From the NCBI GenBank assembly GCA_041648575.1, contig JBAZOT010000003.1:14895-78894 (forward strand): 64,000 nucleotides of DNA, given 5' to 3'. The notes under the pieces were generated by a model. That model was not told where the DNA came from. It did not search any database and worked only from the letters and a program-made list of their open reading frames with translations. This stretch comes from Patescibacteria group bacterium. Its GTDB lineage: Bacteria > Patescibacteriota > Patescibacteriia > Veblenbacterales > UBA10138. Shown here in pieces: positions 2,372 to 61,081 of the stretch. The position numbers and the translations under genes were made by a program. Numbering within the stretch: the first letter of the stretch is position 1; each line of letters opens with the position of its first letter.

Positions 2372-3302
2372 ATTTCAATTTACTTGCCTTTATTTTTAAA
2401 ATATCAACAAAACTCTCCAAGCGTGTTTTTAATCCAGCTTCTGACTGCAGCTCATCTAAAGTTATTACCACAATCGGAATATCTTTTATTTTATTCTGAC
2501 AAAGATTAATAACTAAAGAATCGGGTCCGCAGGGAAAAGTCATTAAAAATATAATGCCATCAAGATGCGGACGGTAAAGTTCAATAGCACCTAAAAAGTA
2601 TTTATGATAAGTCCAATATAAATCACGAGATAAATTAGTTGCCAATTGACGCGCCTGATCTTCATCAACAATGTTAGAATAAACTAAATCAACACCTTGT
2701 GATTCTAAAAACTTAACAATTGGTACACCCAAAAACGCATCATGTGTAGTGTAGGGGTGTGAAACAATTAATACCAGTGGATTGCTATTATCCCTGTCTT
2801 TAAATTTATTTACCTGATCGTTTACTAATTTTTGGTGATGTTGCTTATATTTTTTCTTTGCCTGAATATAAGCCAAGGCACGAGTAAAGGGATTACTATT
2901 TAATTGTTTTGCCATTAAAAATAAACCTATGCTCTCCCCTTTAAACTTCCCAGCATCTATTGTATAAGTTAAAATATTGATTTTATCAAAGCTATTACGG
3001 ACAATATCAACTAAGGCCATAAACTTAGTACACAAAAATTCACCATGCCGTAACGAAACAATGCGTGGTATAAAAATATAATCAACCTTATCCTTTAAAT
3101 AATCTACATGGCCTAAAAAAATTTTTACTGACAAACAACTTTCATCAACTGCTATATTAATACCCCGAGCCATTATTTCCTTATTAGTCGGCGGACTAAC
3201 AACCAACTGGCAACCTAATCTACTAAAATACTCATGCCAAAAAACAGAATATTTATGATAAAGCAAGGCACGCGGCAAACCAATTTTCTTCATAACGAAC
3301 AT
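2346..3302 (-). CDS. DUF2229-like component of a HAD/BCR-family enzyme
   Basis: IGLPRALLYHKYSVFWHEYFSRLGCQLVVSPPTNKEI, AVDESCLSVK and MTFPCGPD resemble the DUF2229 region of fused activase proteins. The likely true start is MKKIG (ATG 3291-3293). Confidence 0.6.
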   Translation of the reverse strand: MFVMKKIGLPRALLYHKYSVFWHEYFSRLGCQLVVSPPTNKEIMARGINIAVDESCLSVKIFLGHVDYLKDKVDYIFIPRIVSLRHGEFLCTKFMALVDIVRNSFDKINILTYTIDAGKFKGESIGLFLMAKQLNSNPFTRALAYIQAKKKYKQHHQKLVNDQVNKFKDRDNSNPLVLIVSHPYTTHDAFLGVPIVKFLESQGVDLVYSNIVDEDQARQLATNLSRDLYWTYHKYFLGAIELYRPHLDGIIFLMTFPCGPDSLVINLCQNKIKDIPIVVITLDELQSEAGLKTRLESFVDILKIKASKLKYEANTQKN

Positions 3303-3305
3303 GAT

Positions 3306-3878
3306 TTATTTAATATATCTACTAATAATCTTATTCTCAATTTGCTTATATAATTCTCCCAATGTATTTTCATTTATCAACTTAATACTAGCTTTCTTTC
3401 CCAAACGCTTAATATAAACCTCGGTTGGTAAATTTTCTTCGCGTTTAAATTGTTCAATGTTAAAATGCGCTTCGCCAACTTTTTCACTCCTGGCTTTAGC
3501 CCGCTTAAAACGTGTCGCTAAACTCGCAGTAACATAAACTAGTAAAAATCCAGGTATTTTGCTTAAAATCTCATATTCTCCAAGATGTCGTAAACCATCA
3601 ATCACAAATTTATTACCAGTTGTTCCTTCTAACCTAAATTTTAACACCTCGGCCAGTATTCCACCGCCAAATCGCTCACGTAATCCTCCCATCAAATTCA
3701 TCTCATTAACTCTGGTAATGGGTAAATGAAGCCTGTTTAAAATATCTACCACAATTTTAGAAAAACGAAAACTCTTAAACCGGTATCGTTTAACCAAATA
3801 TTTGCTAACCATTTCTTTACCGGAAAGTTTTTCTCCTACCAAAACTGATATTATTTTCTTGGTCTTAATTGTTTTCAT
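3306..3878 (-). CDS. small P-loop nucleotide-kinase-like protein with atypical Walker A
   Basis: GEKLSGKE replaces GxxxxGK[ST]. VIDGLRHLGE and LVYVTASLATRFKRAKAR resemble UPF0200/dephospho-CoA-kinase-like small kinases. Lies 3 nt from the next gene. Confidence 0.4.
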   Translation of the reverse strand: MKTIKTKKIISVLVGEKLSGKEMVSKYLVKRYRFKSFRFSKIVVDILNRLHLPITRVNEMNLMGGLRERFGGGILAEVLKFRLEGTTGNKFVIDGLRHLGEYEILSKIPGFLLVYVTASLATRFKRAKARSEKVGEAHFNIEQFKREENLPTEVYIKRLGKKASIKLINENTLGELYKQIENKIISRYIK

Positions 3879-5786: not shown

Positions 5787-6332
5787 TTAGATCTTTTGAA
5801 TTTGTAAAAAATCCAACTCTACTGGCGTTTCCCGTCCAAACATTGAAACCAATACTTTTACTTTACCCCGACCTTCGTCTACCTCGGATACCTTACCGTC
5901 AAAATCCTTAAAAGGCCCATCACTAATTTTTACTGCCATACCAACAGTCACATCCATTTTATAAGTTGGCTCTTCAATGCCCATTCTTTTTTGCAACGCC
6001 TTCATTTCTTCTTCTGAAACTGGAGTTGGAGTGGTGCCGCTACCAATAAATCCAGTAACATTTGGGGTATTACGCACCACATACCATGAATCATCAGTCA
6101 CCATCATTTCCACTAATACGTATCCTGGAAAAATTTTCTCTTCAACCACTTTACGCTTGCCATTTTTAATGCGAATCTTTTTTTCAGTGGGAATTAAAAT
6201 ATTAAAAATCTTATCACCCATATCCATTGATTCAATACGCTGCTTTAAATTGCGGGTAACATTTTCCTCATAACCAGAATAGGTATGTAGGGCATACCAA
6301 CGTCTACCTTGTTGTATTATCTGTCGCGGCAT
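5787..6332 (-). CDS. nusG: transcription termination/antitermination factor NusG
   Basis: RWYALHTYSGYEENV (NGN domain) and a C-terminal KOW domain. I prefer ATG 6330-6332 (MPRQ) over the TTG at 6344 in the ORF track, because that TTG lies inside the repeat element. Confidence 0.9.
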   Translation of the reverse strand: MPRQIIQQGRRWYALHTYSGYEENVTRNLKQRIESMDMGDKIFNILIPTEKKIRIKNGKRKVVEEKIFPGYVLVEMMVTDDSWYVVRNTPNVTGFIGSGTTPTPVSEEEMKALQKRMGIEEPTYKMDVTVGMAVKISDGPFKDFDGKVSEVDEGRGKVKVLVSMFGRETPVELDFLQIQKI

Positions 6333-6333
6333 A

Positions 6334-6481
6334 TCCAGTAACAATAACTTGACCTGCTAAAAATTAAGCGAGTCAAAAGTTTATTTAATAGTTAGATCGG
6401 TCTTGTTTAAAAAAGATAACATAGATTAATAGTATAGATAATTTCTATCAGCACGAGCTTAAGTCAAGTTTTGTTACTGGA
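6334..6481 (-). mobile_element. MITE-like element copy 1 (148 bp) with about 20-bp terminal inverted repeats and CATA flanking duplication
   Basis: The ends are TCCAGTAACAATAACTTGAC ... GTCAAGTTTTGTTACTGGA. CATA occurs at 6330-6333 and 6482-6485. A second copy lies at 51634-51774. Confidence 0.75.
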
Positions 6482-6487
6482 CATAAT

Positions 6488-6676
6488 TTATTTATATAAT
6501 AATTGCTGCAACCCTATATTAAAAATATAATCTAAGGCGCCTAAAAAAATAGCTACCCCCAAAGAAATACCAATCACCAACAAAGTATGTTGGGTAGTTT
6601 CTTTTTTGGTAGGCCAAACAACCCTTTTAAGTTCTTCAATTGATTGTTTAAAATAATTGGTTAATTTATTAGGCAT
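6488..6676 (-). CDS. secE: preprotein translocase subunit SecE
   Basis: 62 aa with VVWPTKKET followed by a single TM helix. Lies upstream of nusG. Confidence 0.8.
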   Translation of the reverse strand: MPNKLTNYFKQSIEELKRVVWPTKKETTQHTLLVIGISLGVAIFLGALDYIFNIGLQQLLYK

Positions 6677-6725: not shown

Positions 6726-6752
6726 TCTTTTAAAAGGCCCCTTGCTGGGCCT
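6726..6752 (-). terminator. hairpin plus U-tract (terminator or attenuator) upstream of secE
   Basis: The minus strand reads GGCCCAGCAAGGGGCC followed by UUUUAAAAG (stem 6736-6740 with 6747-6751). Confidence 0.4.
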
Positions 6753-6846
6753 CTATTAAAAAGAATAGCACGAAGTTAAAATGCTGGCAAGTGCCTAAAA
6801 CACTATTGAAAATTAATAAAAAGCCCTAAATACCGTAGTAGTTGGG

Positions 6847-7039
6847 AGATAGTGGTGAAGATTATTAAGAATTAATGTTTTGTAGAGAAGATGTGCAGAT
6901 GCACAAGGGGCGAGTTTTTTAGTAGGAGTTTGGGGATACAATTTAAACCTCTAAGTTATAAAGATTTAAATTGTATCCCTGTCACCACGCTACCAACCTG
7001 CCTGTTTTTCCTCTTGTTAATCCTTCTCCACCACCATCT
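6847..7039 (-). ncRNA. candidate 193-nt rod-shaped RNA (6S-like architecture), or a structured leader of the secE operon
   Basis: It starts at the predicted TSS of a consensus promoter. There is a 15-bp closing stem (7039-7025 with 6847-6861, including 2 G.U pairs that form only on the minus-strand RNA), a loosely paired centre, and a perfect 15-bp apical stem (6933-6947 with 6965-6979). No ORF. Confidence 0.45.
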
Positions 7040-7045
7040 ATCTTA

Positions 7046-7074
7046 ATTTTACTCCTAAATTAACAATTTGTCAA
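7046..7074 (-). promoter_or_regulatory. sigma70-type promoter TTGACA-17-TAAAAT
   Basis: Reverse complement: TTGACA (7074-7069), the 17-nt spacer AATTGTTAATTTAGGAG, then TAAAAT (7051-7046). Predicted start is A at 7039. Confidence 0.6.
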
Positions 7075-7105
7075 ATCAACCAAATTTGGATTGCGTATAA
7101 CGTAT

Positions 7106-7170
7106 GCGGATATGAGAAGTTGCGAAGCAATTTGGGATGAGACTCTGCAAGAGCCGAGACTCATATCCGC
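7106..7170. repeat. 65-bp GC-rich palindromic element
   Basis: Perfect 11-bp arms GCGGATATGAG / CTCATATCCGC with inner mini-hairpins TTGC-GAA-GCAA and CTCT-GCA-AGAG. It shares GCGGAT and CGAAGCAAT with the pheT insert. Confidence 0.6.
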
Positions 7171-7171
7171 T

Positions 7172-7237
7172 GTTAGGCGAGGGTGAGCGACCAACGGGAG
7201 CGAAAGTGCAACGCCCCCTTGAGTTCAAACCTGAGCC
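7172..7237. repeat. left terminal inverted repeat of the SDR cassette, interrupted by a 41-bp GC-rich insert (7181-7221)
   Basis: GTTAGGCGA[41 nt]AGTTCAAACCTGAGCC matches the reverse complement of 8032-8056 (GTTAGGCGAAATTCAAACCTGAGCC) at 24/25 once the insert is removed. Confidence 0.65.
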
Positions 7238-7247
7238 GTCCCTCAAT

Positions 7248-7982
7248 TTAGTTTTTAACATTCTTTTGCTTGATTACAATAATTTGTCCAGTAATATGAT
7301 CTGCCTCTTTTGAAGCTAAAAACAAAGTCAAGCTTGCGACATCTTCGGATTGAAGTGCGTTATCTGGTGTAGCATCATCTGGGAAAAATTTTTTGTACGC
7401 TTCAGTTGCTACATCAGAAGGCGAAATGCAATTAACTTGAATTTGATGATTTCTAAGTTCGTGAGAAAGTCCAACCGTTAAATCTTCAATCGCTTTTTTG
7501 GACACGAAATAAGGAAGCCAACCTTTTGCGCCACTCTCGAAAGTTCCTGAAATGTTGATGATTTTACTACCTTGTTTCATTAAGGAAACGAGTTCGTGTG
7601 ATAAAATGGTTGGCGCAGTTAAACCCACTGCGTAAGTATCCAAAATTTCATCGGTTGAATAATCAGCAAATTCAATCCCTGAAAACGCTTTGTCTTTAGA
7701 GTGCCAAATACCAGCAACATTGACGAGAATATCTATTTCGCCTTCTGACTCCTTGATATTTTGAGCAAACTTTTTTATCTCATCAACACTTCTTAAGTCA
7801 ACACAAAAAATTTTTCCTTCGCTACCTGCTTCTTTAACAAGCTCAAGTGTTTTTTCTAAACCATCTTTGGAGCGAGCCAAAAGCATAGTTTTCGCACCTT
7901 CCGAAGCGAGCTTGACGGATATAGCACGACCAATGCCAATACTTGCACCTGTGATGACGGCAATTTTGTTTTTTAGCTTCAT
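7248..7982 (-). CDS. short-chain dehydrogenase/reductase (SDR) family oxidoreductase
   Basis: Contains TGASIGIGRA (TGxxxGxG), NVAG and the catalytic YFVSK (YxxxK). 244 aa. Confidence 0.85.
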   Translation of the reverse strand: MKLKNKIAVITGASIGIGRAISVKLASEGAKTMLLARSKDGLEKTLELVKEAGSEGKIFCVDLRSVDEIKKFAQNIKESEGEIDILVNVAGIWHSKDKAFSGIEFADYSTDEILDTYAVGLTAPTILSHELVSLMKQGSKIINISGTFESGAKGWLPYFVSKKAIEDLTVGLSHELRNHQIQVNCISPSDVATEAYKKFFPDDATPDNALQSEDVASLTLFLASKEADHITGQIIVIKQKNVKN

Positions 7983-20948: not shown

Positions 20949-20977
20949 TTGACAAATTAGACTAGATGGTGTAAAAT
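20949..20977 (+). promoter_or_regulatory. promoter TTGACA-17-TAAAAT
   Basis: TTGACA (20949-54), spacer AATTAGACTAGATGGTG, TAAAAT (20972-77). It overlaps the ATG used by the ORF track, so the real start must be downstream. Confidence 0.55.
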
Positions 20978-32711: not shown

Positions 32712-32749
32712 TAGTCATTTACCCTTTCGCGCGAAAGGGTAAATGACTA
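32712..32749. repeat. 38-bp perfect palindrome TAGTCATTTACCCTTTCGC|GCGAAAGGGTAAATGACTA
   Basis: Read directly from the sequence. It lies between the arsR-like stop and the promoter of the 240-aa gene. Confidence 0.8.
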
Positions 32750-33062: not shown

Positions 33063-33100
33063 AGTATATCATATTTACTGATTCGCGCGAAAGGGTAAAT
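33063..33100 (-). promoter_or_regulatory. leaderless arsR promoter (TGA TATACT, 6 nt from the ATG) overlapped by a degenerate copy of the TTTACCC..GGGTAAA palindrome
   Basis: ATTTACTGATTCGCGCGAAAGGGTAAAT (33073-33100) covers the -35 position and may be an operator. Confidence 0.45.
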
Positions 33101-49739: not shown

Positions 49740-51632
49740 TTATCTAACAACCACTCCTTTGCCTTGCGCGCCTAAATCATTATCCAGTTCTGTGGTAACT
49801 AATTTATCTGTAGCAATTAAATCTGCACCGCTATAAGCATCCCGAGCTGTGGCAGTGGTGGTTTTTACCAACACTAAAATTTTATCCGCATCTTGCTCTG
49901 CCGGTGTAATAGCTACTTCAAAAGACGCTTCTGGTTTATCAAATTTAAACCCTACGCCCGCAGGCAGACGATTTAATTCCCAACGCACTTCGCGAGTATT
50001 GGGATTATATGTTAATGGCTGGCCATGCGATACTGTCGTTTGTCCGGTCCAGGTTACATCTTGGGGTAAAGTAGTAGTAACTTCAACGTTGCTAGCCTCA
50101 TTAATAGTATTGGCTAATCTCCAAAAAATATTATAAGTGGTAGTGTTGCCTACTCGCGGCGGCAACTGTCCCGAGCCAATTTTTATCAACTGATCTGTGT
50201 AATACCTACCTTCTGTTTGAACTAATAATTGTGTATTAATCTTGGTAATTATAATATTTGATTCAGTAGTAACCGGCTGTAATTTACCACCAATCAATTG
50301 CTCGGCACTCGCCTTAACGCTGGTATTAAAACTATAAGGCGACATATTGTTAGGAGCAACACTTACAACTTTCAAGCGAAAATTAATACTGCCTTTGGTA
50401 CCAGGAGCAACTCTAGCTAAACTGGGCAACTCATTTTTTGTCCAAACCACTGCGTTTTCTGTCTCTTTAACATTAGTTGGCGTATCTGTTTGCCAAGAGG
50501 TCCAATCTAATAACTCGGAATTTAATTTGGTCTCTAACACTAAATTAGTTAAAGCAATTTCCCCTTCATTAGCATAACGCAATTCAAAATCAATTTGTTC
50601 CCCCCAATCAGCATAGCTTTTTAAAACTACCTGATTCGCAGTTAATGACAATGTTAAATGAGACTCAATTAACGTTACAGATATTTTCTTTTCTTCTTGA
50701 ATAGTAAAAGTATTATCGTCATTAATCACACCAATGGCTACAGAAAAATCCTGAATACCAGCACTAGCTGAAGTGGTAAACCTGCCGGTAAATTCCAGCT
50801 CGCCAACACTTTTGGCAGATAGGTCATCCAATTTCCATAAATTTATTTCGCCAATTACTGATTCTAATTTTGGAAGATCCAATTCGAAGCCGCTGGGGCT
50901 AATGAATTTTAATGCTAAATTCGGCAACGCCGCAGTAGAAGTATTATTATACTTAATTTTTAATGCCAAATCTTGATCAAAAGGTAATTGTGCAGGAGCT
51001 TCTAAATCTATGGTTACTACCGAAGCAATTAATTCTGTGGAAAAAACTGTCGTCTTGGCAAACTGTGCTTTAAAATTTTCCGGCTCATATGTAAAAACCG
51101 CGGCCATTTCCTTAATCTCGCCAACCTCACCAACCATTTGCCCGGTTATTACCAACTCTCCACTACCTTTGGCGTCAACTTGACCTAAGAGAAATCTAGT
51201 CTTGGCTTCATCATCAGCTGGTTTACTGGTTTCAGTTACGACAAAACCAGTCGGATAGCGAAAATTAACTTCCAAAAAATTTAAACCAACTCCCTGATCA
51301 TTATTCCAAGACAAAGTATAATTAATCATTTGCCCCGATGGCGCACTGACTGGACCAGATAATTTCACCTTAACCGCTTCTTCGCCAAATTTTGTATTCT
51401 GACCACTAAAAAAAACAAACCAAATGCCACCGACAATAATTACCACTAATAAAGTGGTCGTTAACCATAACCAACCACGCTGACGTGAAGCTTTTTTTCT
51501 TAGCACGCGAAAATCTTCAGGTGGATCTTGGCGATACATGCGCGCCAATTCACGCTCGGCAACTTCTGCAGTTAAAGGTGTTTTTTTTGATTTTGATAAA
51601 GTATCAAGAGGTGGCCTAGAAATATTAGACAT
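49740..51632 (-). CDS. large membrane-anchored surface protein with repeated beta-sandwich (DUF11/CARDB-like) modules
   Basis: N-terminal cytoplasmic tail, one TM helix (LWLTTTLLVVIIVGGIWFVFF), then about 550 aa rich in T/V/N. I prefer ATG 51630-51632 over the TTG inside the repeat. Confidence 0.6.
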   Translation of the reverse strand: MSNISRPPLDTLSKSKKTPLTAEVAERELARMYRQDPPEDFRVLRKKASRQRGWLWLTTTLLVVIIVGGIWFVFFSGQNTKFGEEAVKVKLSGPVSAPSGQMINYTLSWNNDQGVGLNFLEVNFRYPTGFVVTETSKPADDEAKTRFLLGQVDAKGSGELVITGQMVGEVGEIKEMAAVFTYEPENFKAQFAKTTVFSTELIASVVTIDLEAPAQLPFDQDLALKIKYNNTSTAALPNLALKFISPSGFELDLPKLESVIGEINLWKLDDLSAKSVGELEFTGRFTTSASAGIQDFSVAIGVINDDNTFTIQEEKKISVTLIESHLTLSLTANQVVLKSYADWGEQIDFELRYANEGEIALTNLVLETKLNSELLDWTSWQTDTPTNVKETENAVVWTKNELPSLARVAPGTKGSINFRLKVVSVAPNNMSPYSFNTSVKASAEQLIGGKLQPVTTESNIIITKINTQLLVQTEGRYYTDQLIKIGSGQLPPRVGNTTTYNIFWRLANTINEASNVEVTTTLPQDVTWTGQTTVSHGQPLTYNPNTREVRWELNRLPAGVGFKFDKPEASFEVAITPAEQDADKILVLVKTTTATARDAYSGADLIATDKLVTTELDNDLGAQGKGVVVR

Positions 51633-51633
51633 A

Positions 51634-51774
51634 CCCAGTAACAAAAACTTGACCTGCTAAAAATTAAGCGAGTCGAGATAATTAATAATAAAAGTTGGTT
51701 GGTTTATAAAAGCTGACATAAATTGATAATATAGATGATTTTTACCAGAGCTTAAGTCAAGTTTTGTTACTAGG
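51634..51774 (-). mobile_element. MITE-like element copy 2 (141 bp)
   Basis: The ends are CCCAGTAACAAAAACTTGAC ... GTCAAGTTTTGTTACTAGG. CATA occurs at 51630-33 and 51775-78. It has the same orientation relative to transcription as copy 1. Confidence 0.75.
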
Positions 51775-51779
51775 CATAT

Positions 51780-52529
51780 TTATAGAATACTACGTAAAAG
51801 TTTTAATGTATAGAGTTGTCGTCCTGCCTGTCCTTGGACATAATCAACCAAAAATCCTAAAAGTTCAGCTGGTAATTGACGATTATACGGTGGTTCCGCT
51901 CGTGTCGCTAGGGTGTGTAAATAACTTAAAGCGTCATCAGTTAATAAAAACAAACCACTGCTATCGATGATACAATTTTTATGATAAAAACCATGTTCTC
52001 TAAAACTAAACACCACGGGCGCTGCTAATTCACCTTGGCATTTTGGACACCTAGTAACTTGAATTGCTAGACCAGTAATTTTTAATATTTTATAAATAAA
52101 TCTGCCCAGATATGTTCTGGCTCGCTCACGCCAAGCCGGCTCATCTTTGGGAATATCTTTTAATTGGCTTAAATAATACCTTAGCGATTTTAATAATTCC
52201 GGTTCAGGCGCGCCTAAAGAAGTTAGCACATCAGTTATTTCCAAAAACGAAGTGCCTAAAATGGCGGTATTTAAATGATAAGGTGTTTTTAAAAAAATTC
52301 TTTTAAGTTCCGCGCCTGCTAATTTATCATATTTTTTCCCCGGTGCCACCTGTACCTGAACTTCACCAAAAATCACCAAATGTGGAGCTAATTTAGATAA
52401 AATTTTTCGCGAACTAGTAGCTACCGCCTCAACCTTACCCCGTCGCTCTGTAAAAATAGTATAAAGCCGATCATTTTGCCTATGACTTCTAGCGCGTAAA
52501 ACAATACCGGTAGTGGTATAAGTAGACAT
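51780..52529 (-). CDS. recO: DNA repair protein RecO
   Basis: N-terminal OB fold (TTGIVLRARSHRQNDRLYTIFT) and zinc finger CPKCQG...HKNC. Confidence 0.8.
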   Translation of the reverse strand: MSTYTTTGIVLRARSHRQNDRLYTIFTERRGKVEAVATSSRKILSKLAPHLVIFGEVQVQVAPGKKYDKLAGAELKRIFLKTPYHLNTAILGTSFLEITDVLTSLGAPEPELLKSLRYYLSQLKDIPKDEPAWRERARTYLGRFIYKILKITGLAIQVTRCPKCQGELAAPVVFSFREHGFYHKNCIIDSSGLFLLTDDALSYLHTLATRAEPPYNRQLPAELLGFLVDYVQGQAGRQLYTLKLLRSIL

Positions 52530-60593: not shown

Positions 60594-60700
60594 CATGAAG
60601 TATATGCTAGCAAATTAATACGCCATGAAGTTGTATAAAGAAGTAAATACTTCTTGGCTCGCCATGAAGTTATGCGAATAAAATGAGCATATACTTCATG
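60594..60700. repeat. cluster of CATGAAGT/ACTTCATG repeats abutting the tmRNA 3' end
   Basis: A 15-bp inverted repeat CATGAAGTATATGCT (60594-608) pairs with AGCATATACTTCATG (60686-700). The direct repeat CGCCATGAAGTT occurs twice, and there is an inner hairpin AGAAGTA-AA-TACTTCT. Confidence 0.6.
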
Positions 60701-61081
60701 GTGGAGATGGCGGGAATTACACCCGCGTCTAAGACAATTAACTTTACCCTTCTACAAACTTAGTCTGATTAATTTTGACAGAAGTCAAATCAGACCAAAG
60801 CCCCTGTCAATCTGTCCTAAGTAATGTCGGCCTAAGCACTAGAACAATACTTAAACCCTGCTCGATAAATGACGCTCTATAAGACTATCGAGATCGTCTA
60901 ATAGAACGGCCTCTGCTTAAATTAAGCAAAAGCTGGTGCTAGTGTCAAAGTGCTAAAAGCAGCTTTGGCGCGAGCTACAAATGATTTGGCATTTGTGAAG
61001 TGTGATGCTTTTATTACGCAGACACATCAACTGCGGTCTGCCAGACAAAGATCACTGCCTTATCGATTGTTAAACATCCCC
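60699..61081 (-). ncRNA. ssrA: tmRNA (transfer-messenger RNA)
   Basis: The 5' GGGGATG pairs with the 3' CATCTCC-A-CCA, including a G3.U pair. T-arm GCGGG-TGTAATT-CCCGC. An internal tag frame ends ...LAPAFA-TAA with the stop inside hairpin GCTTAA-TT-TAAGC. Adjacent to smpB. Confidence 0.85.

What the first reader, a model, noticed from the sequence alone, without database searches (positions are those of the whole stretch)
6847..7074. Consensus promoter driving a 193-nt rod-shaped RNA (6S-like candidate) upstream of secE
What the sequence shows: on the minus strand, TTGACA-17 nt-TAAAAT (7074-7046) predicts a start at A7039. From that exact base the RNA folds as a rod. It has 15 consecutive closing pairs (7039-7025 with 6847-6861); two of them are G.U on the minus-strand RNA but would be C.A on the other strand, which supports the orientation. 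The centre is poorly paired, with a small 3'-side hairpin (UGUGC-AUCU-GCACA). The apical stem is a perfect 15 bp (6933-6947 with 6965-6979). There is no credible ORF. Established background: 6S RNA is a roughly 180-200 nt, largely double-stranded RNA with a central bubble. Inference: the size, shape and own sigma70 promoter fit 6S RNA, but nothing at the sequence level proves it. The alternative is a long structured leader for secE-nusG-rplKA, because the next terminator-like hairpin lies at 6736-6751.
Basis: partly seen in the sequence, partly recalled or inferred. Interest (0 to 1): 0.6.

Follow-up and report, generated by a model that had tools for sequence, protein, structure and literature searches.

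The report
Rod-shaped small RNA gene before secE
A real, separately transcribed, roughly 190-nucleotide hairpin-shaped RNA gene sits upstream of secE in a small group of Patescibacteria (ultra-small, uncultured bacteria); its shape is kept by compensating mutations and recalls the polymerase-binding 6S RNA, but it fails the tests for 6S membership and its function is unproven.

Summary
A near-consensus promoter (7074-7046, minus strand) precedes a 193-nt RNA (7039-6847) that folds as a rod (-73.7 kcal/mol, z = -8.9).

Five distinct homologues, plus one 3' fragment, occur in close Patescibacteria relatives. Each folds alone into the same architecture. On a hand-made structural alignment 88% of cells pair, and 31 of 83 pairs change on both sides (0 of 500 shuffles reach this). 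All five complete variants keep TTGAC-N-17-TAWWAT, with the predicted start within 2 nt of the first base of the closing stem.

It is not the secE leader. secE has its own promoter and a leader hairpin plus U-tract, present in most of 86 related loci with or without the rod. It is not a multicopy repeat element, has no conserved ORF and is not at a replication origin.

The 6S reading is only partly supported. Size, rod shape, closing and apical stems, and a 3' hairpin opposite a 5' A-rich linker all fit. But no Rfam 6S model matches any homologue even at E <= 10. Only 2-6 nt are predicted open where 6S has a large bubble. Two very close relatives lack the RNA at this site. The G.U orientation argument does not hold across the family.

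Verdict: a new structured ncRNA class, 6S-like in form, function open.

The parts
7046..7074 (-). Promoter of the RNA: -35 TTGACA (7074-7069), 17-nt spacer, -10 TAAAAT (7051-7046). Predicted start is A7039.
   Evidence: 11 of 12 matches. (5 such sites in 64 kb against 0.48 expected); the same promoter sits at the same offset in 5 of 5 homologues (TTGAC[A/T/G]-17-TA[A/T][A/T]AT).
6847..7039 (-). The 193-nt rod-shaped RNA (whole gene body).
   Evidence: MFE -73.7, z -8.9; homologues fold alone to the same architecture; 83 pairs, 88.4% of cells paired, 31 pairs with changes on both sides, 0 of 500 shuffles.
7025..7039 (-). P1 closing stem, 5' strand. Pairs with 6847-6861 (15 bp, two G.U).
   Evidence: helix 1: 96% of cells paired, 5 pairs with changes on both sides. 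UGGU/ACCA is invariant.
6847..6861 (-). P1 closing stem, 3' strand.
7017..7024 (-). P1b, 5' strand. Pairs with 6868-6875. Separated from P1 by a 3'-side A-rich bulge (6862-6867, UAAUAA).
   Evidence: helix 2: 6 of 8 pairs with changes on both sides.
7009..7014 (-). P2, 5' strand (AGAGGA). Pairs with 6884-6889 (UUCUCU). This is the weak helix next to the junction.
   Evidence: helix 3: two invariant G-C pairs, 2 pairs with changes on both sides, 68% of cells paired.
7003..7008 (-). 5' A-rich single-stranded linker (AAAACA). It occupies the position of a 6S 5' central bulge but is short (2-6 nt across homologues).
   Evidence: unpaired probability 0.95-1.0.
6892..6905 (-). P3, a small hairpin on the 3' strand opposite the linker (UGUGC-AUCU-GCACA).
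   Evidence: helix 7: 2 pairs with changes on both sides. Variants are GAUC/GAUC, GAC/GUC and GCAC/GUGC.
6995..7002 (-). P4, 5' strand (GGCAGGUU). Pairs with 6909-6916, with an AAAA bulge at 6917-6920.
   Evidence: helix 4: 5 of 10 pairs with changes on both sides.
6980..6994 (-). Most conserved core, 5' strand: GGUAGCGUGG (with two bulged bases) plus internal-loop bases UGACA.
   Evidence: invariant columns. helix 5: 100% of cells paired, no covariation because the sequence is conserved.
6921..6932 (-). Most conserved core, 3' strand: CAAA loop bases plus CUCCUACU.
6933..6979 (-). P5 apical stem-loop (21 bp plus a 5-nt loop). The sequence is almost entirely replaced between homologues while pairing is kept.
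   Evidence: helix 6: 11 of 24 pairs with changes on both sides.
6818..6846 (-). Weak terminator-like hairpin (6846-6824) followed by a U5 run (6822-6818). A possible 3' end about 30 nt beyond the rod.
   Evidence: -5.1 kcal/mol, no better than shuffles. Similar CCC..GGG-U5-6 elements occur in L002 and L086 and are absent in L001 and L084. Weak evidence.
6762..6790 (-). secE's own promoter (TTGCCA-17-TATTCT). Not part of the RNA; it marks where the next transcription unit begins.
   Evidence: 9 of 12 matches. TTGCCA-17-TA...T lies downstream of the rod in all five homologues; it is also present in loci without the rod.
6726..6751 (-). secE leader hairpin GGCCCAGCAAGGGGCC plus UUUUAAAAGA.
   Evidence: a GC hairpin plus U-tract occurs in 77 of 86 loci, 57 of them with a promoter-like site 5-42 nt upstream.

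Best explanation
It is a stand-alone gene for a stable, rod-shaped non-coding RNA of about 190 nt, possibly up to about 225 nt with a 3' tail.

Shown:
- A strong housekeeping-type promoter is placed so that transcription starts at (within about 2 nt of) the first base of the closing stem.
- The 5' and 3' ends pair with each other.
- Every helix (P1, P1b, P2, P3, P4, P5) is maintained by compensatory changes.
- A core next to the apical stem is conserved in sequence: GGUAGYGUGG / CYCCUACY, plus a YGAM / CAA internal loop.

Inferred: the RNA most likely acts in trans as a protein-binding decoy of the 6S type. In that model its imperfect duplex mimics promoter DNA. The junction (5' A-rich linker opposite the 3' hairpin, flanked by the weak helix P2) would play the role of the opened -10 region. 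The conserved core, about 16-18 bp further towards the apex, would play the role of the -35 contact. The RNA would thereby sequester the sigma-A RNA polymerase holoenzyme.

I do not file it as a member of the 6S family. The confidence given (0.35) is for the whole statement including the inferred mechanism; that it is a real, separately promoted, structured RNA gene I put at about 0.85-0.9.
For: Real RNA gene:
- z = -8.9 in the window; -6.8 and -10.7 in two homologues.
- Six sequences fold independently to the same helices.
- 31 of 83 pairs change on both sides, 88.4% of cells are paired, 0 of 500 shuffles reach this, and slid controls give at most 10 such pairs.
- An unsupervised MAFFT plus RNAalifold run on three sequences already gives 9 compensatory pairs.
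- The promoter is conserved at the same offset in 5 of 5 homologues, and no antisense promoter is conserved.
- Unpaired positions are 38-61% A and 2-7% G, as in sense-strand structured RNAs.
- No ORF is conserved.

Separate from secE: secE's own promoter and leader are conserved with or without the rod.

6S-like form, against the description in PMC8876501 and PMC8414754:
- About 200 nt, rod-shaped, with a closing stem and an apical stem interrupted by bulges.
- A hairpin on the 3' strand opposite a 5' bulge, as in B. subtilis 6S-1.
- A weak P2 helix next to that bulge.
- Transcribed from a housekeeping promoter.

Dispensable, as 6S is: the RNA is lost at this site in L003 and L082.
Against: - No match to Rfam 6S or any related model for the window or the homologues, even at E <= 10.
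- The predicted open region on the 5' strand is only 2-6 nt. P2 and P4, which flank it, are supported by covariation, so the centre is a three-way junction rather than a large bubble.
- Seen only in one narrow clade (NusG at least 90% identical). The covariance model R1 found no further member in 694 kb from about 85 Patescibacteria loci. One metagenome pattern scan found only a near-duplicate.
- Always immediately upstream of, and co-oriented with, secE, with weak or no terminator. A cis role is therefore not excluded.
- Pair-level strand evidence is balanced: G.U 24 against A.C 28.
- No expression or binding data exist.
Confidence: 0.35

Rival explanations
1. A lineage-specific trans-acting structured RNA with a function unrelated to RNA polymerase. 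Examples would be a scaffold or sponge for another protein that recognises the conserved core or internal loop, or a base-pairing regulator that uses the single-stranded C-rich stretch (CCCCU / CCCACCC) before the 3' hairpin to pair with G-rich ribosome-binding sites.
For: - Same evidence for a discrete structured RNA.
- Sequence conservation is concentrated in one internal-loop and helix module, typical of a protein-binding site.
- The 6S models fail and the bubble is small.
- The distribution is narrow and patchy, as expected for an accessory RNA.
- A C-rich unpaired segment next to P3 is present in all variants.
Against: - No candidate partner gene is consistently nearby. The upstream neighbours differ: gyrB, a short-chain dehydrogenase (SDR), a nuclease-like ORF.
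- No target complementarity was tested.
- The overall architecture is most economically matched by 6S.
Confidence: 0.3
2. A cis-acting upstream module of the secE-nusG-rplK-rplA operon. The strong promoter reads through the rod and the weak terminator into the secE leader. The rod either stabilises this longer transcript or modifies the polymerase, as processive antitermination RNAs do, so that it passes the conserved terminator-like leader hairpin.
For: - In all five variants the RNA lies directly upstream of, and co-oriented with, secE, although the upstream neighbour differs.
- Downstream terminators are weak in the A-type variants and absent as separate hairpins in the B-type.
- In L084 the rod ends only about 15 nt before the secE -35 box.
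- The secE leader carries a conserved GC hairpin plus U-tract that looks like an attenuator.
Against: - secE has its own promoter in every locus. Two close relatives run the same operon and leader without the rod.
- The transcript start coincides with the first base of a closing stem that pairs the 5' end with the 3' end. That is the design of a stand-alone stable RNA, not of a leader.
- In B-type variants the closing stem is directly followed by a U-rich run that could terminate transcription.
- Synteny within so narrow a clade may simply be inherited.
Confidence: 0.2
3. A DNA-level feature that happens to carry promoter-like hexamers: a long imperfect palindrome such as a miniature inverted-repeat mobile element, a recombination site or an origin-associated cruciform.
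For: - Presence and absence are patchy among close relatives at one site.
- There is no net strand bias between G.U and A.C appositions, and the antisense strand folds better in three homologues.
- A conserved DnaA-box 9-mer lies upstream in three variants.
- Genuine small inverted-repeat elements do exist in the same genomes.
Against: - Single copy in the 64-kb window, and no other copy in 694 kb of related loci.
- The termini differ between homologues, whereas internal helices are kept by compensatory change. A transposase-recognised element shows the opposite pattern.
- GC skew is uniformly negative and there is no DnaA-box cluster, so there is no origin here.
- The promoter is conserved at a fixed offset on one strand only.
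- Unpaired positions are A-rich on that strand.
Confidence: 0.05

Closest known systems
6S RNA (SsrS; Rfam RF00013), especially the Bacillus subtilis 6S-1 type
   Same: - About 190-200 nt and rod-shaped.
- A closing stem formed by the 5' and 3' ends.
- An apical stem with bulges.
- A small hairpin on the 3' strand opposite a single-stranded 5' segment.
- A weak helix (P2) on the closing-stem side of that segment.
- Its own housekeeping promoter.
- Dispensable.

Description of 6S taken from PMC8876501 and PMC8414754. Features of this RNA.
   Different: - No covariance-model match at any threshold tried.
- The open 5' segment is 2-6 nt instead of a large bubble, and the flanking helices covary, so the centre is a three-way junction.
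- The apical stem is much longer and more regular.
- The arms are strongly asymmetric: a G-rich 5' arm and a C-rich, G-poor 3' arm.
- Known only from a very narrow clade.
Ms1 RNA of actinobacteria (6S-like RNA that binds core RNA polymerase)
   Same: It is a precedent for a rod-like, 6S-resembling RNA that standard 6S models do not detect and that is confined to one lineage (abstract of PMC9130861, listed).
   Different: From my own knowledge, not verified here: Ms1 is about 300 nt, binds core enzyme rather than holoenzyme, and has no sequence relationship to this RNA. No Rfam Ms1-type match was seen here.
Processive antitermination RNAs (phage HK022 put, Bacillus EAR)
   Same: They are structured RNAs transcribed just upstream of the operon they act on, in the same orientation. 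They work in cis on the transcribing polymerase. This fits the fixed position before secE-nusG and the weak terminator. The family descriptions come from my own knowledge.
   Different: - Those elements are shorter two-hairpin or pseudoknotted structures without a closing stem that joins the transcript's two ends.
- Here the downstream operon has its own promoter, and close relatives manage without the RNA.
Miniature inverted-repeat elements (for example the ~160-nt element at 6330-6490 and 51630-51785 of this window)
   Same: A hairpin-forming DNA segment of 150-200 bp in intergenic DNA, with patchy presence between relatives.
   Different: The true repeat element in this window has about 20-nt, nearly perfect terminal inverted repeats and two copies. 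The rod is single-copy, has variable termini and is kept as a structure by compensatory changes.

Membership tests
6S RNA | Length about 150-200 nt, with a rod-like fold made of a closing stem (5' and 3' ends paired) and an apical stem, both interrupted by small loops and bulges | tested here: met
   193 nt. Same fold in six sequences. Covariation in P1, P1b, P4 and P5.
6S RNA | Large, mostly unpaired central bubble that mimics an open promoter (5' strand of roughly 10 nt or more) | tested here: not met
   By prediction only 2-6 nt of the 5' strand are open (unpaired probability >= 0.95). The flanking P2 and P4 are mostly paired and show covariation. This is thermodynamic prediction, not structure probing.
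6S RNA | Hairpin in the 3' strand of the central region, opposite the 5' bulge (B. subtilis 6S-1 / Firmicutes type) | tested here: met
   P3 is present in all variants with compensatory changes: UGUGC/GCACA, GAUC/GAUC, GAC/GUC, GCAC/GUGC.
6S RNA | Recognised by the curated covariance model (Rfam RF00013 or related 6S models) | tested here: not met
   No 6S hit at gathering score or at E <= 10 for the window, L086/L091 or L001.
6S RNA | Binds housekeeping sigma-RNA polymerase holoenzyme and serves as a template for short product RNAs | not testable with these tools
   Needs biochemistry or small-RNA sequencing.
6S RNA | Abundant discrete transcript, widespread across a phylum (usually one or two genes per genome) | tested here: inconclusive
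   The strong promoter is conserved, but no expression data exist. The RNA was found in five variants of one narrow clade only. It is absent at the syntenic site in L003 and L082, and whole genomes could not be searched.
5' leader of secE-nusG | Continuous with the coding region, with no promoter of its own between it and the gene, and present wherever the operon's regulation is conserved | tested here: not met
   A secE promoter plus leader hairpin lies between the rod and secE in all five variants, and in most of 86 loci that lack the rod.
Miniature inverted-repeat transposable element | Multiple dispersed copies with conserved terminal inverted repeats | tested here: not met
   One copy in the 64-kb window. 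No other copy in 694 kb of related loci. The termini differ between homologues.
Signal recognition particle RNA (another rod-shaped RNA) | Conserved apical domain IV motif, and a match to the Rfam SRP models | tested here: not met
   No SRP hit. The apical loop is not conserved between homologues: UAACU, AAAC, AAAAG, ACAU, AAGA.

The most novel reading that the evidence does not exclude
This is the first representative of a Patescibacteria-specific class of polymerase-directed regulatory RNA. It would be either a highly divergent 6S analogue built around a three-way junction instead of a bubble, or a cis/trans element that couples a strong, possibly DnaA-controlled, promoter to expression of the secE-nusG-ribosomal protein operon. 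In either case it evolves so fast that only its structure and a ~20-nt core are recognisable.
Probability: 0.2. Interest if true: 0.7.

Novelty: new variant of a known kind. Interest (0 to 1): 0.5.

Why it matters
Patescibacteria (the candidate phyla radiation) have tiny genomes and almost no experimentally characterised regulatory RNAs. I found no report of a 6S RNA for them in the searchable literature.

A well-supported structured RNA that has its own consensus promoter and is not in Rfam is a concrete candidate for such a regulator. The support comes from five independently diverged variants with compensatory changes in every helix.

If it binds RNA polymerase, it would show how far 6S-type mimicry can drift, to a three-way junction instead of a bubble. 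It would also supply a model for finding the missing 6S RNAs of this large radiation.

If it instead acts on the adjacent secE-nusG operon, it would be a new cis-regulatory RNA type for a universally conserved operon.

Its narrow distribution limits its general importance until wider searches are done.

Tried and rejected
- Rfam at gathering score on the whole window, and at E <= 10 on 1.3 kb, on 211 nt and on three homologues. Only generic hairpin (microRNA precursor) noise; no 6S, SRP, Y or other family.
- tRNA scan. None in the window or in 30 loci. The tool also missed the tmRNA that Rfam found, so I did not rely on it.
- Repeat or mobile-element reading. No second copy.
- Small-protein reading. 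No conserved ORF on either strand.
- Replication-origin or cruciform reading. GC skew never changes sign and there is no DnaA-box cluster.
- Search for distant members:
  - nhmmer and blastn on 80 loci.
  - Core-motif regular expressions.
  - Covariance model R1 on 87 and then 9 further sources.
  - One metagenome pattern scan, which found only a near-duplicate of L001.
  - One viral-contig scan, which found nothing.
  - A weak R1 hit in L036, which is an artefact with many non-pairs and no core.
- Local-fold scan for rods upstream of secE in all loci. Non-homologous rods turned up in L057 and L036, but no systematic pattern, so I did not pursue it.
- Second strong promoter with similar flanks at 20949-20977. 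It drives a small membrane-protein ORF, not an RNA.
- Strand assignment from G.U pairs. Rejected as evidence because it reverses in half of the homologues.
- Separate downstream terminator. Only weak, non-significant hairpins.

Full report
**1. What is in the window**

Read on the minus strand, the gene order is gyrB (10364-8319), a short-chain dehydrogenase ORF (SDR, 7982-7248), a GC-richer 170-nt spacer, the finding, then secE (6676-6488), nusG (6344-5787), rplK and rplA.

The promoter TTGACA-17-TAAAAT at 7074-7046 is the best sigma-70-like site in the 2-kb scan (11 of 12). Sites of the form TTGAC-N18-TAWWAT occur only 5 times in 64 kb, against 0.48 expected.

From A7039 the 193-nt RNA folds as one rod:
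- MFE is -73.7 kcal/mol. Shuffles average -37.6, so z = -8.9.
- The closing stem has 15 pairs, two of them G.U.
- The apical stem has 21 pairs, 15 of them consecutive Watson-Crick.

**2. Organism and homologues**

NusG-based retrieval places the window in Patescibacteria, with Kerfeldbacteria, Veblenbacteria and Uhrbacteria-like MAGs as nearest neighbours.

Homologues of the RNA:
- L002 (89% identical).
- L001 and its near-duplicate L081.
- L084/L085 and L086.
- A 3' fragment at the start of contig L091.

These make two sequence types: A (window, L002, L086) and B (L001/L081, L084, L091). The two types are barely alignable by sequence, although their NusG proteins are about 91% identical.

Each full-length sequence, folded on its own, gives the same list of helices:
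- P1, the closing stem.
- P1b, after an A-rich 3' bulge.
- P2.
- A short A-rich 5' linker opposite a small 3' hairpin, P3.
- P4.
- A conserved core helix, GGUAGYGUGG / CYCCUACY, with two bulged bases.
- An internal loop, YGAM(A/G) / C(A/C)AA.
- A long apical stem, P5.

**3. Covariation**

An unsupervised MAFFT plus RNAalifold run on the three A-type sequences already shows 9 pairs with changes on both sides.

I then built a structural alignment of all six sequences by hand. Segments were checked to reproduce each sequence exactly. The alignment was passed through the aligner unchanged, with N as gap filler.

| Measure | Value |
|---|---|
| Pairs in the stated structure | 83 |
| Cells forming standard pairs | 88.4% |
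| Pairs with changes on both sides | 31 |
| Shuffles reaching any of these values | 0 of 500 |
| Cells paired with the 3' partner slid by 1-3 columns | 40-50% |
| Pairs with changes on both sides, slid controls | at most 10 |

Every helix except the sequence-conserved core contributes.

Caveats: the alignment was fitted to the structure, and the six rows represent only two deep lineages. The independent single-sequence folds are therefore the less biased support.

The L091 fragment adds another compensatory version of P3, GCAC-AUUA-GUGC.

**4. Which strand, and is it a separate transcript?**

It reverses in L001, L081 and L084. Over the family there are 24 G.U pairs against 28 A.C appositions. 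Pair chemistry therefore does not decide the strand.

Three other lines do:
- All five variants carry TTGAC[A/T/G]-17-TA[A/T][A/T]AT at the same offset. The predicted start falls within 2 nt of the first base of the closing stem. No antisense promoter is conserved.
- Unpaired positions on this strand are 38-61% A and only 2-7% G.
- The A-type variants have a small CCC...GGG hairpin followed by U5-6 about 30 nt downstream. In the B-type variants the closing stem runs straight into a U-rich tract. These terminators are weak: the hairpins score no better than shuffles. The 3' end, and some read-through, therefore remain open.

**5. Not the secE leader**

Downstream of the rod, every variant has a second promoter, TTGCCA-17-TA...T. 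A GC-rich hairpin and UUUU(A)n follow it within about 5-20 nt (window 6790-6726).

The same promoter-hairpin-U-tract arrangement sits in front of secE in relatives that have no rod, for example L003, L005, L011, L012 and L022 (listing). A simple scan finds the hairpin plus U-tract in 77 of 86 loci, and 57 of those have a promoter-like site 5-42 nt upstream.

secE does not need the rod as a leader.

**6. Other readings excluded**

- Repeat element: there is no second copy in the window or in 694 kb of related loci. By contrast, a genuine ~160-nt inverted-repeat element is present twice in the window.
- Peptide: no ORF is conserved.
- Origin: GC skew is negative throughout and DnaA boxes do not cluster.
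- Phage: the core pattern is absent from viral contigs.

**7. Distribution**

The RNA was found only in relatives whose NusG is at least 90% identical to the window's. It always lies immediately upstream of secE. The gene upstream of it varies: gyrB in L001, L084 and L086; the SDR in the window; a nuclease-like ORF in L002.

Two equally close relatives lack it at this site:
- L003 has gyrB directly followed by the secE promoter.
- L082/L083 have a spacer containing three copies of the gyrB 3' end.

Further SecE-guided look-ups (L087-L095) lack it too. Whole genomes could not be searched, so a copy elsewhere in those genomes cannot be excluded.

**8. Comparison with 6S RNA**

The literature describes 6S RNA as follows (PMC8876501 and PMC8414754):
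- About 200 nt and rod-shaped.
- A relatively unstructured central bubble between a closing stem and an apical stem.
- In B. subtilis 6S-1 and lactic acid bacteria, a hairpin on the 3' strand opposite the 5' bulge.
- A helix P2 that is unwound when the polymerase copies the 5' bulge into a short product RNA.

| Feature | This RNA |
|---|---|
| Size | Met |
| Rod shape | Met |
| Closing and apical stems | Met |
| 3' hairpin opposite a 5' single strand | Met |
| Weak P2 next to that single strand | Met |
| Match to a 6S covariance model | Not met |
| Large central bubble | Not met |

On the last point, only 2-6 nt of the 5' strand are predicted open, and the adjoining P2 and P4 show covariation. 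The centre is a three-way junction.

One geometric point is compatible with promoter mimicry, but it is inference only. The sequence-conserved core and internal loop lie about 16-18 bp from the junction on the apical side. That is about the spacing between the -10 and -35 elements.

I therefore describe the RNA as 6S-like in form, but I do not file it as a 6S RNA.

**9. Most likely mechanism and rivals**

It is a real, separately promoted, structured ncRNA gene; I put that at about 0.85-0.9.

| Explanation | Probability |
|---|---|
| Trans-acting decoy for sigma-A RNA polymerase holoenzyme, of the 6S type | about 0.35 |
| A different trans-acting role (protein scaffold or sponge via the conserved core, or base-pairing via the unpaired C-rich stretch before P3) | about 0.3 |
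| A cis role for the secE-nusG-rplKA operon (read-through from the strong promoter, or antitermination at the leader hairpin) | about 0.2 |
| A DNA-level palindrome | about 0.05 |

The cis model draws support from the invariable position and the weak terminators. Three observations argue against it:
- secE has its own promoter.
- Close relatives lack the rod.
- The end-to-end closing stem is typical of stand-alone stable RNAs.

**10. Novelty and interest**

The RNA matches nothing in Rfam 15. I found no report of 6S RNA in Patescibacteria, the candidate phyla radiation or Saccharibacteria in the searchable library.

It is a new structured RNA class whose closest analogue is 6S RNA. Its narrow known distribution, and the absence of any expression or binding data, keep the interest moderate.

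Noticed in passing
window 6726-6790 (-); the same position upstream of secE in most of L001-L095: secE is preceded by its own promoter. About 5-20 nt later comes a GC-rich hairpin followed by UUUU(A)n, which looks like an intrinsic terminator inside the 5' leader. The arrangement recurs across very diverse Patescibacteria: a hairpin plus U-tract in 77 of 86 loci, 57 of them with a promoter-like site just upstream. Because nusG lies downstream, it could be a feedback attenuator. It is not in Rfam at E <= 10. My scan had no chance control.
   Followed up: partly
window 6330-6490 (between secE and nusG) and 51630-51785; related pieces in L086 about 545-700, L010 and L081 1-60: A ~160-nt element is present twice in the window. 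It has ~20-nt terminal inverted repeats (CCAGTAACAAwAACTTGAC / GTCAAGTTTTGTTACTGG), its ends are 91-96% identical between copies and its centre is more diverged. It looks like a miniature inverted-repeat mobile element that inserts into the untranslated spacers of the secE-nusG region.
   Followed up: partly
L001 about 3408-3416, L081, L084 about 2446-2454, L086 about 150-158 (30-40 nt upstream of the RNA's -35 box): A perfect DnaA-box 9-mer (TGTGGATAA, the complement of TTATCCACA) is invariant in three otherwise poorly conserved gyrB-to-RNA spacers. It is absent in the window and in L002, where other DNA has been inserted upstream. The perfect 9-mer occurs only once in the whole 64-kb window (62112). 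This raises the possibility that DnaA controls the RNA's promoter.
   Followed up: partly
window 6847-7039 (-) and all homologues: The two arms of the rod differ sharply in composition in every variant. The 5' half is 31-35% G and 7-10% C. The 3' half is 31-43% C and only 4-6% G. All larger bulges lie on the 3' strand and are A-rich. I have no explanation for this.
   Followed up: no
window 7075-7250 (-); L002 about 3100-3450: A GC-richer, palindrome-containing non-coding stretch lies between the upstream ORF and the RNA's promoter. In the window it includes the 11-bp stem GCGGATATGAG...CTCATATCCGC. In L002 there are several hairpins with ATGCTTGGCAT loops. The fold z-score is only -1.8 and Rfam gives no hit. 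It may be a remnant of inserted DNA.
   Followed up: partly
L082 180-410 and L083 1-130: In the closest relative without the RNA, the gyrB-secE spacer carries three diverged copies of the last ~20 nt of gyrB (AAAGAATyTkGAyATTTAr). It also carries the palindrome TTTTCTTATTCGCGCGAATAAGAAAA, which resembles the palindromes at window 32717-32744 and 33073-33100. This suggests recombination or deletion scars where the RNA gene would be.
   Followed up: no
window 60699-61081 (-): Rfam finds a full-length tmRNA (97.5 bits). The ARAGORN tool reported no tmRNA and no tRNA in the window or in any locus, both through the tool and when run in the sandbox. Rfam also finds no tRNA in the 64 kb.
   Followed up: partly
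L057 3500-3699; L036 3535-3660: Unrelated long hairpins (a 200-nt single rod in L057, about 125 nt in L036) lie just upstream of the secE promoter in two distant Patescibacteria loci. They share no sequence similarity with the RNA studied here and have no obvious promoter. This may be coincidence, or a recurrent habit of carrying structured elements at this spot.
   Followed up: no
L087-L090 (upstream of secE): Repeated palindromic units (GAAGTTGATATACGGGGTATGCCCCGATATACAACTTCG) and a long AT-rich perfect palindrome (AAACTTAATAATAAATAATTGATTGTTAGAAAATT...) replace the usual secE leader region in these relatives.
   Followed up: no
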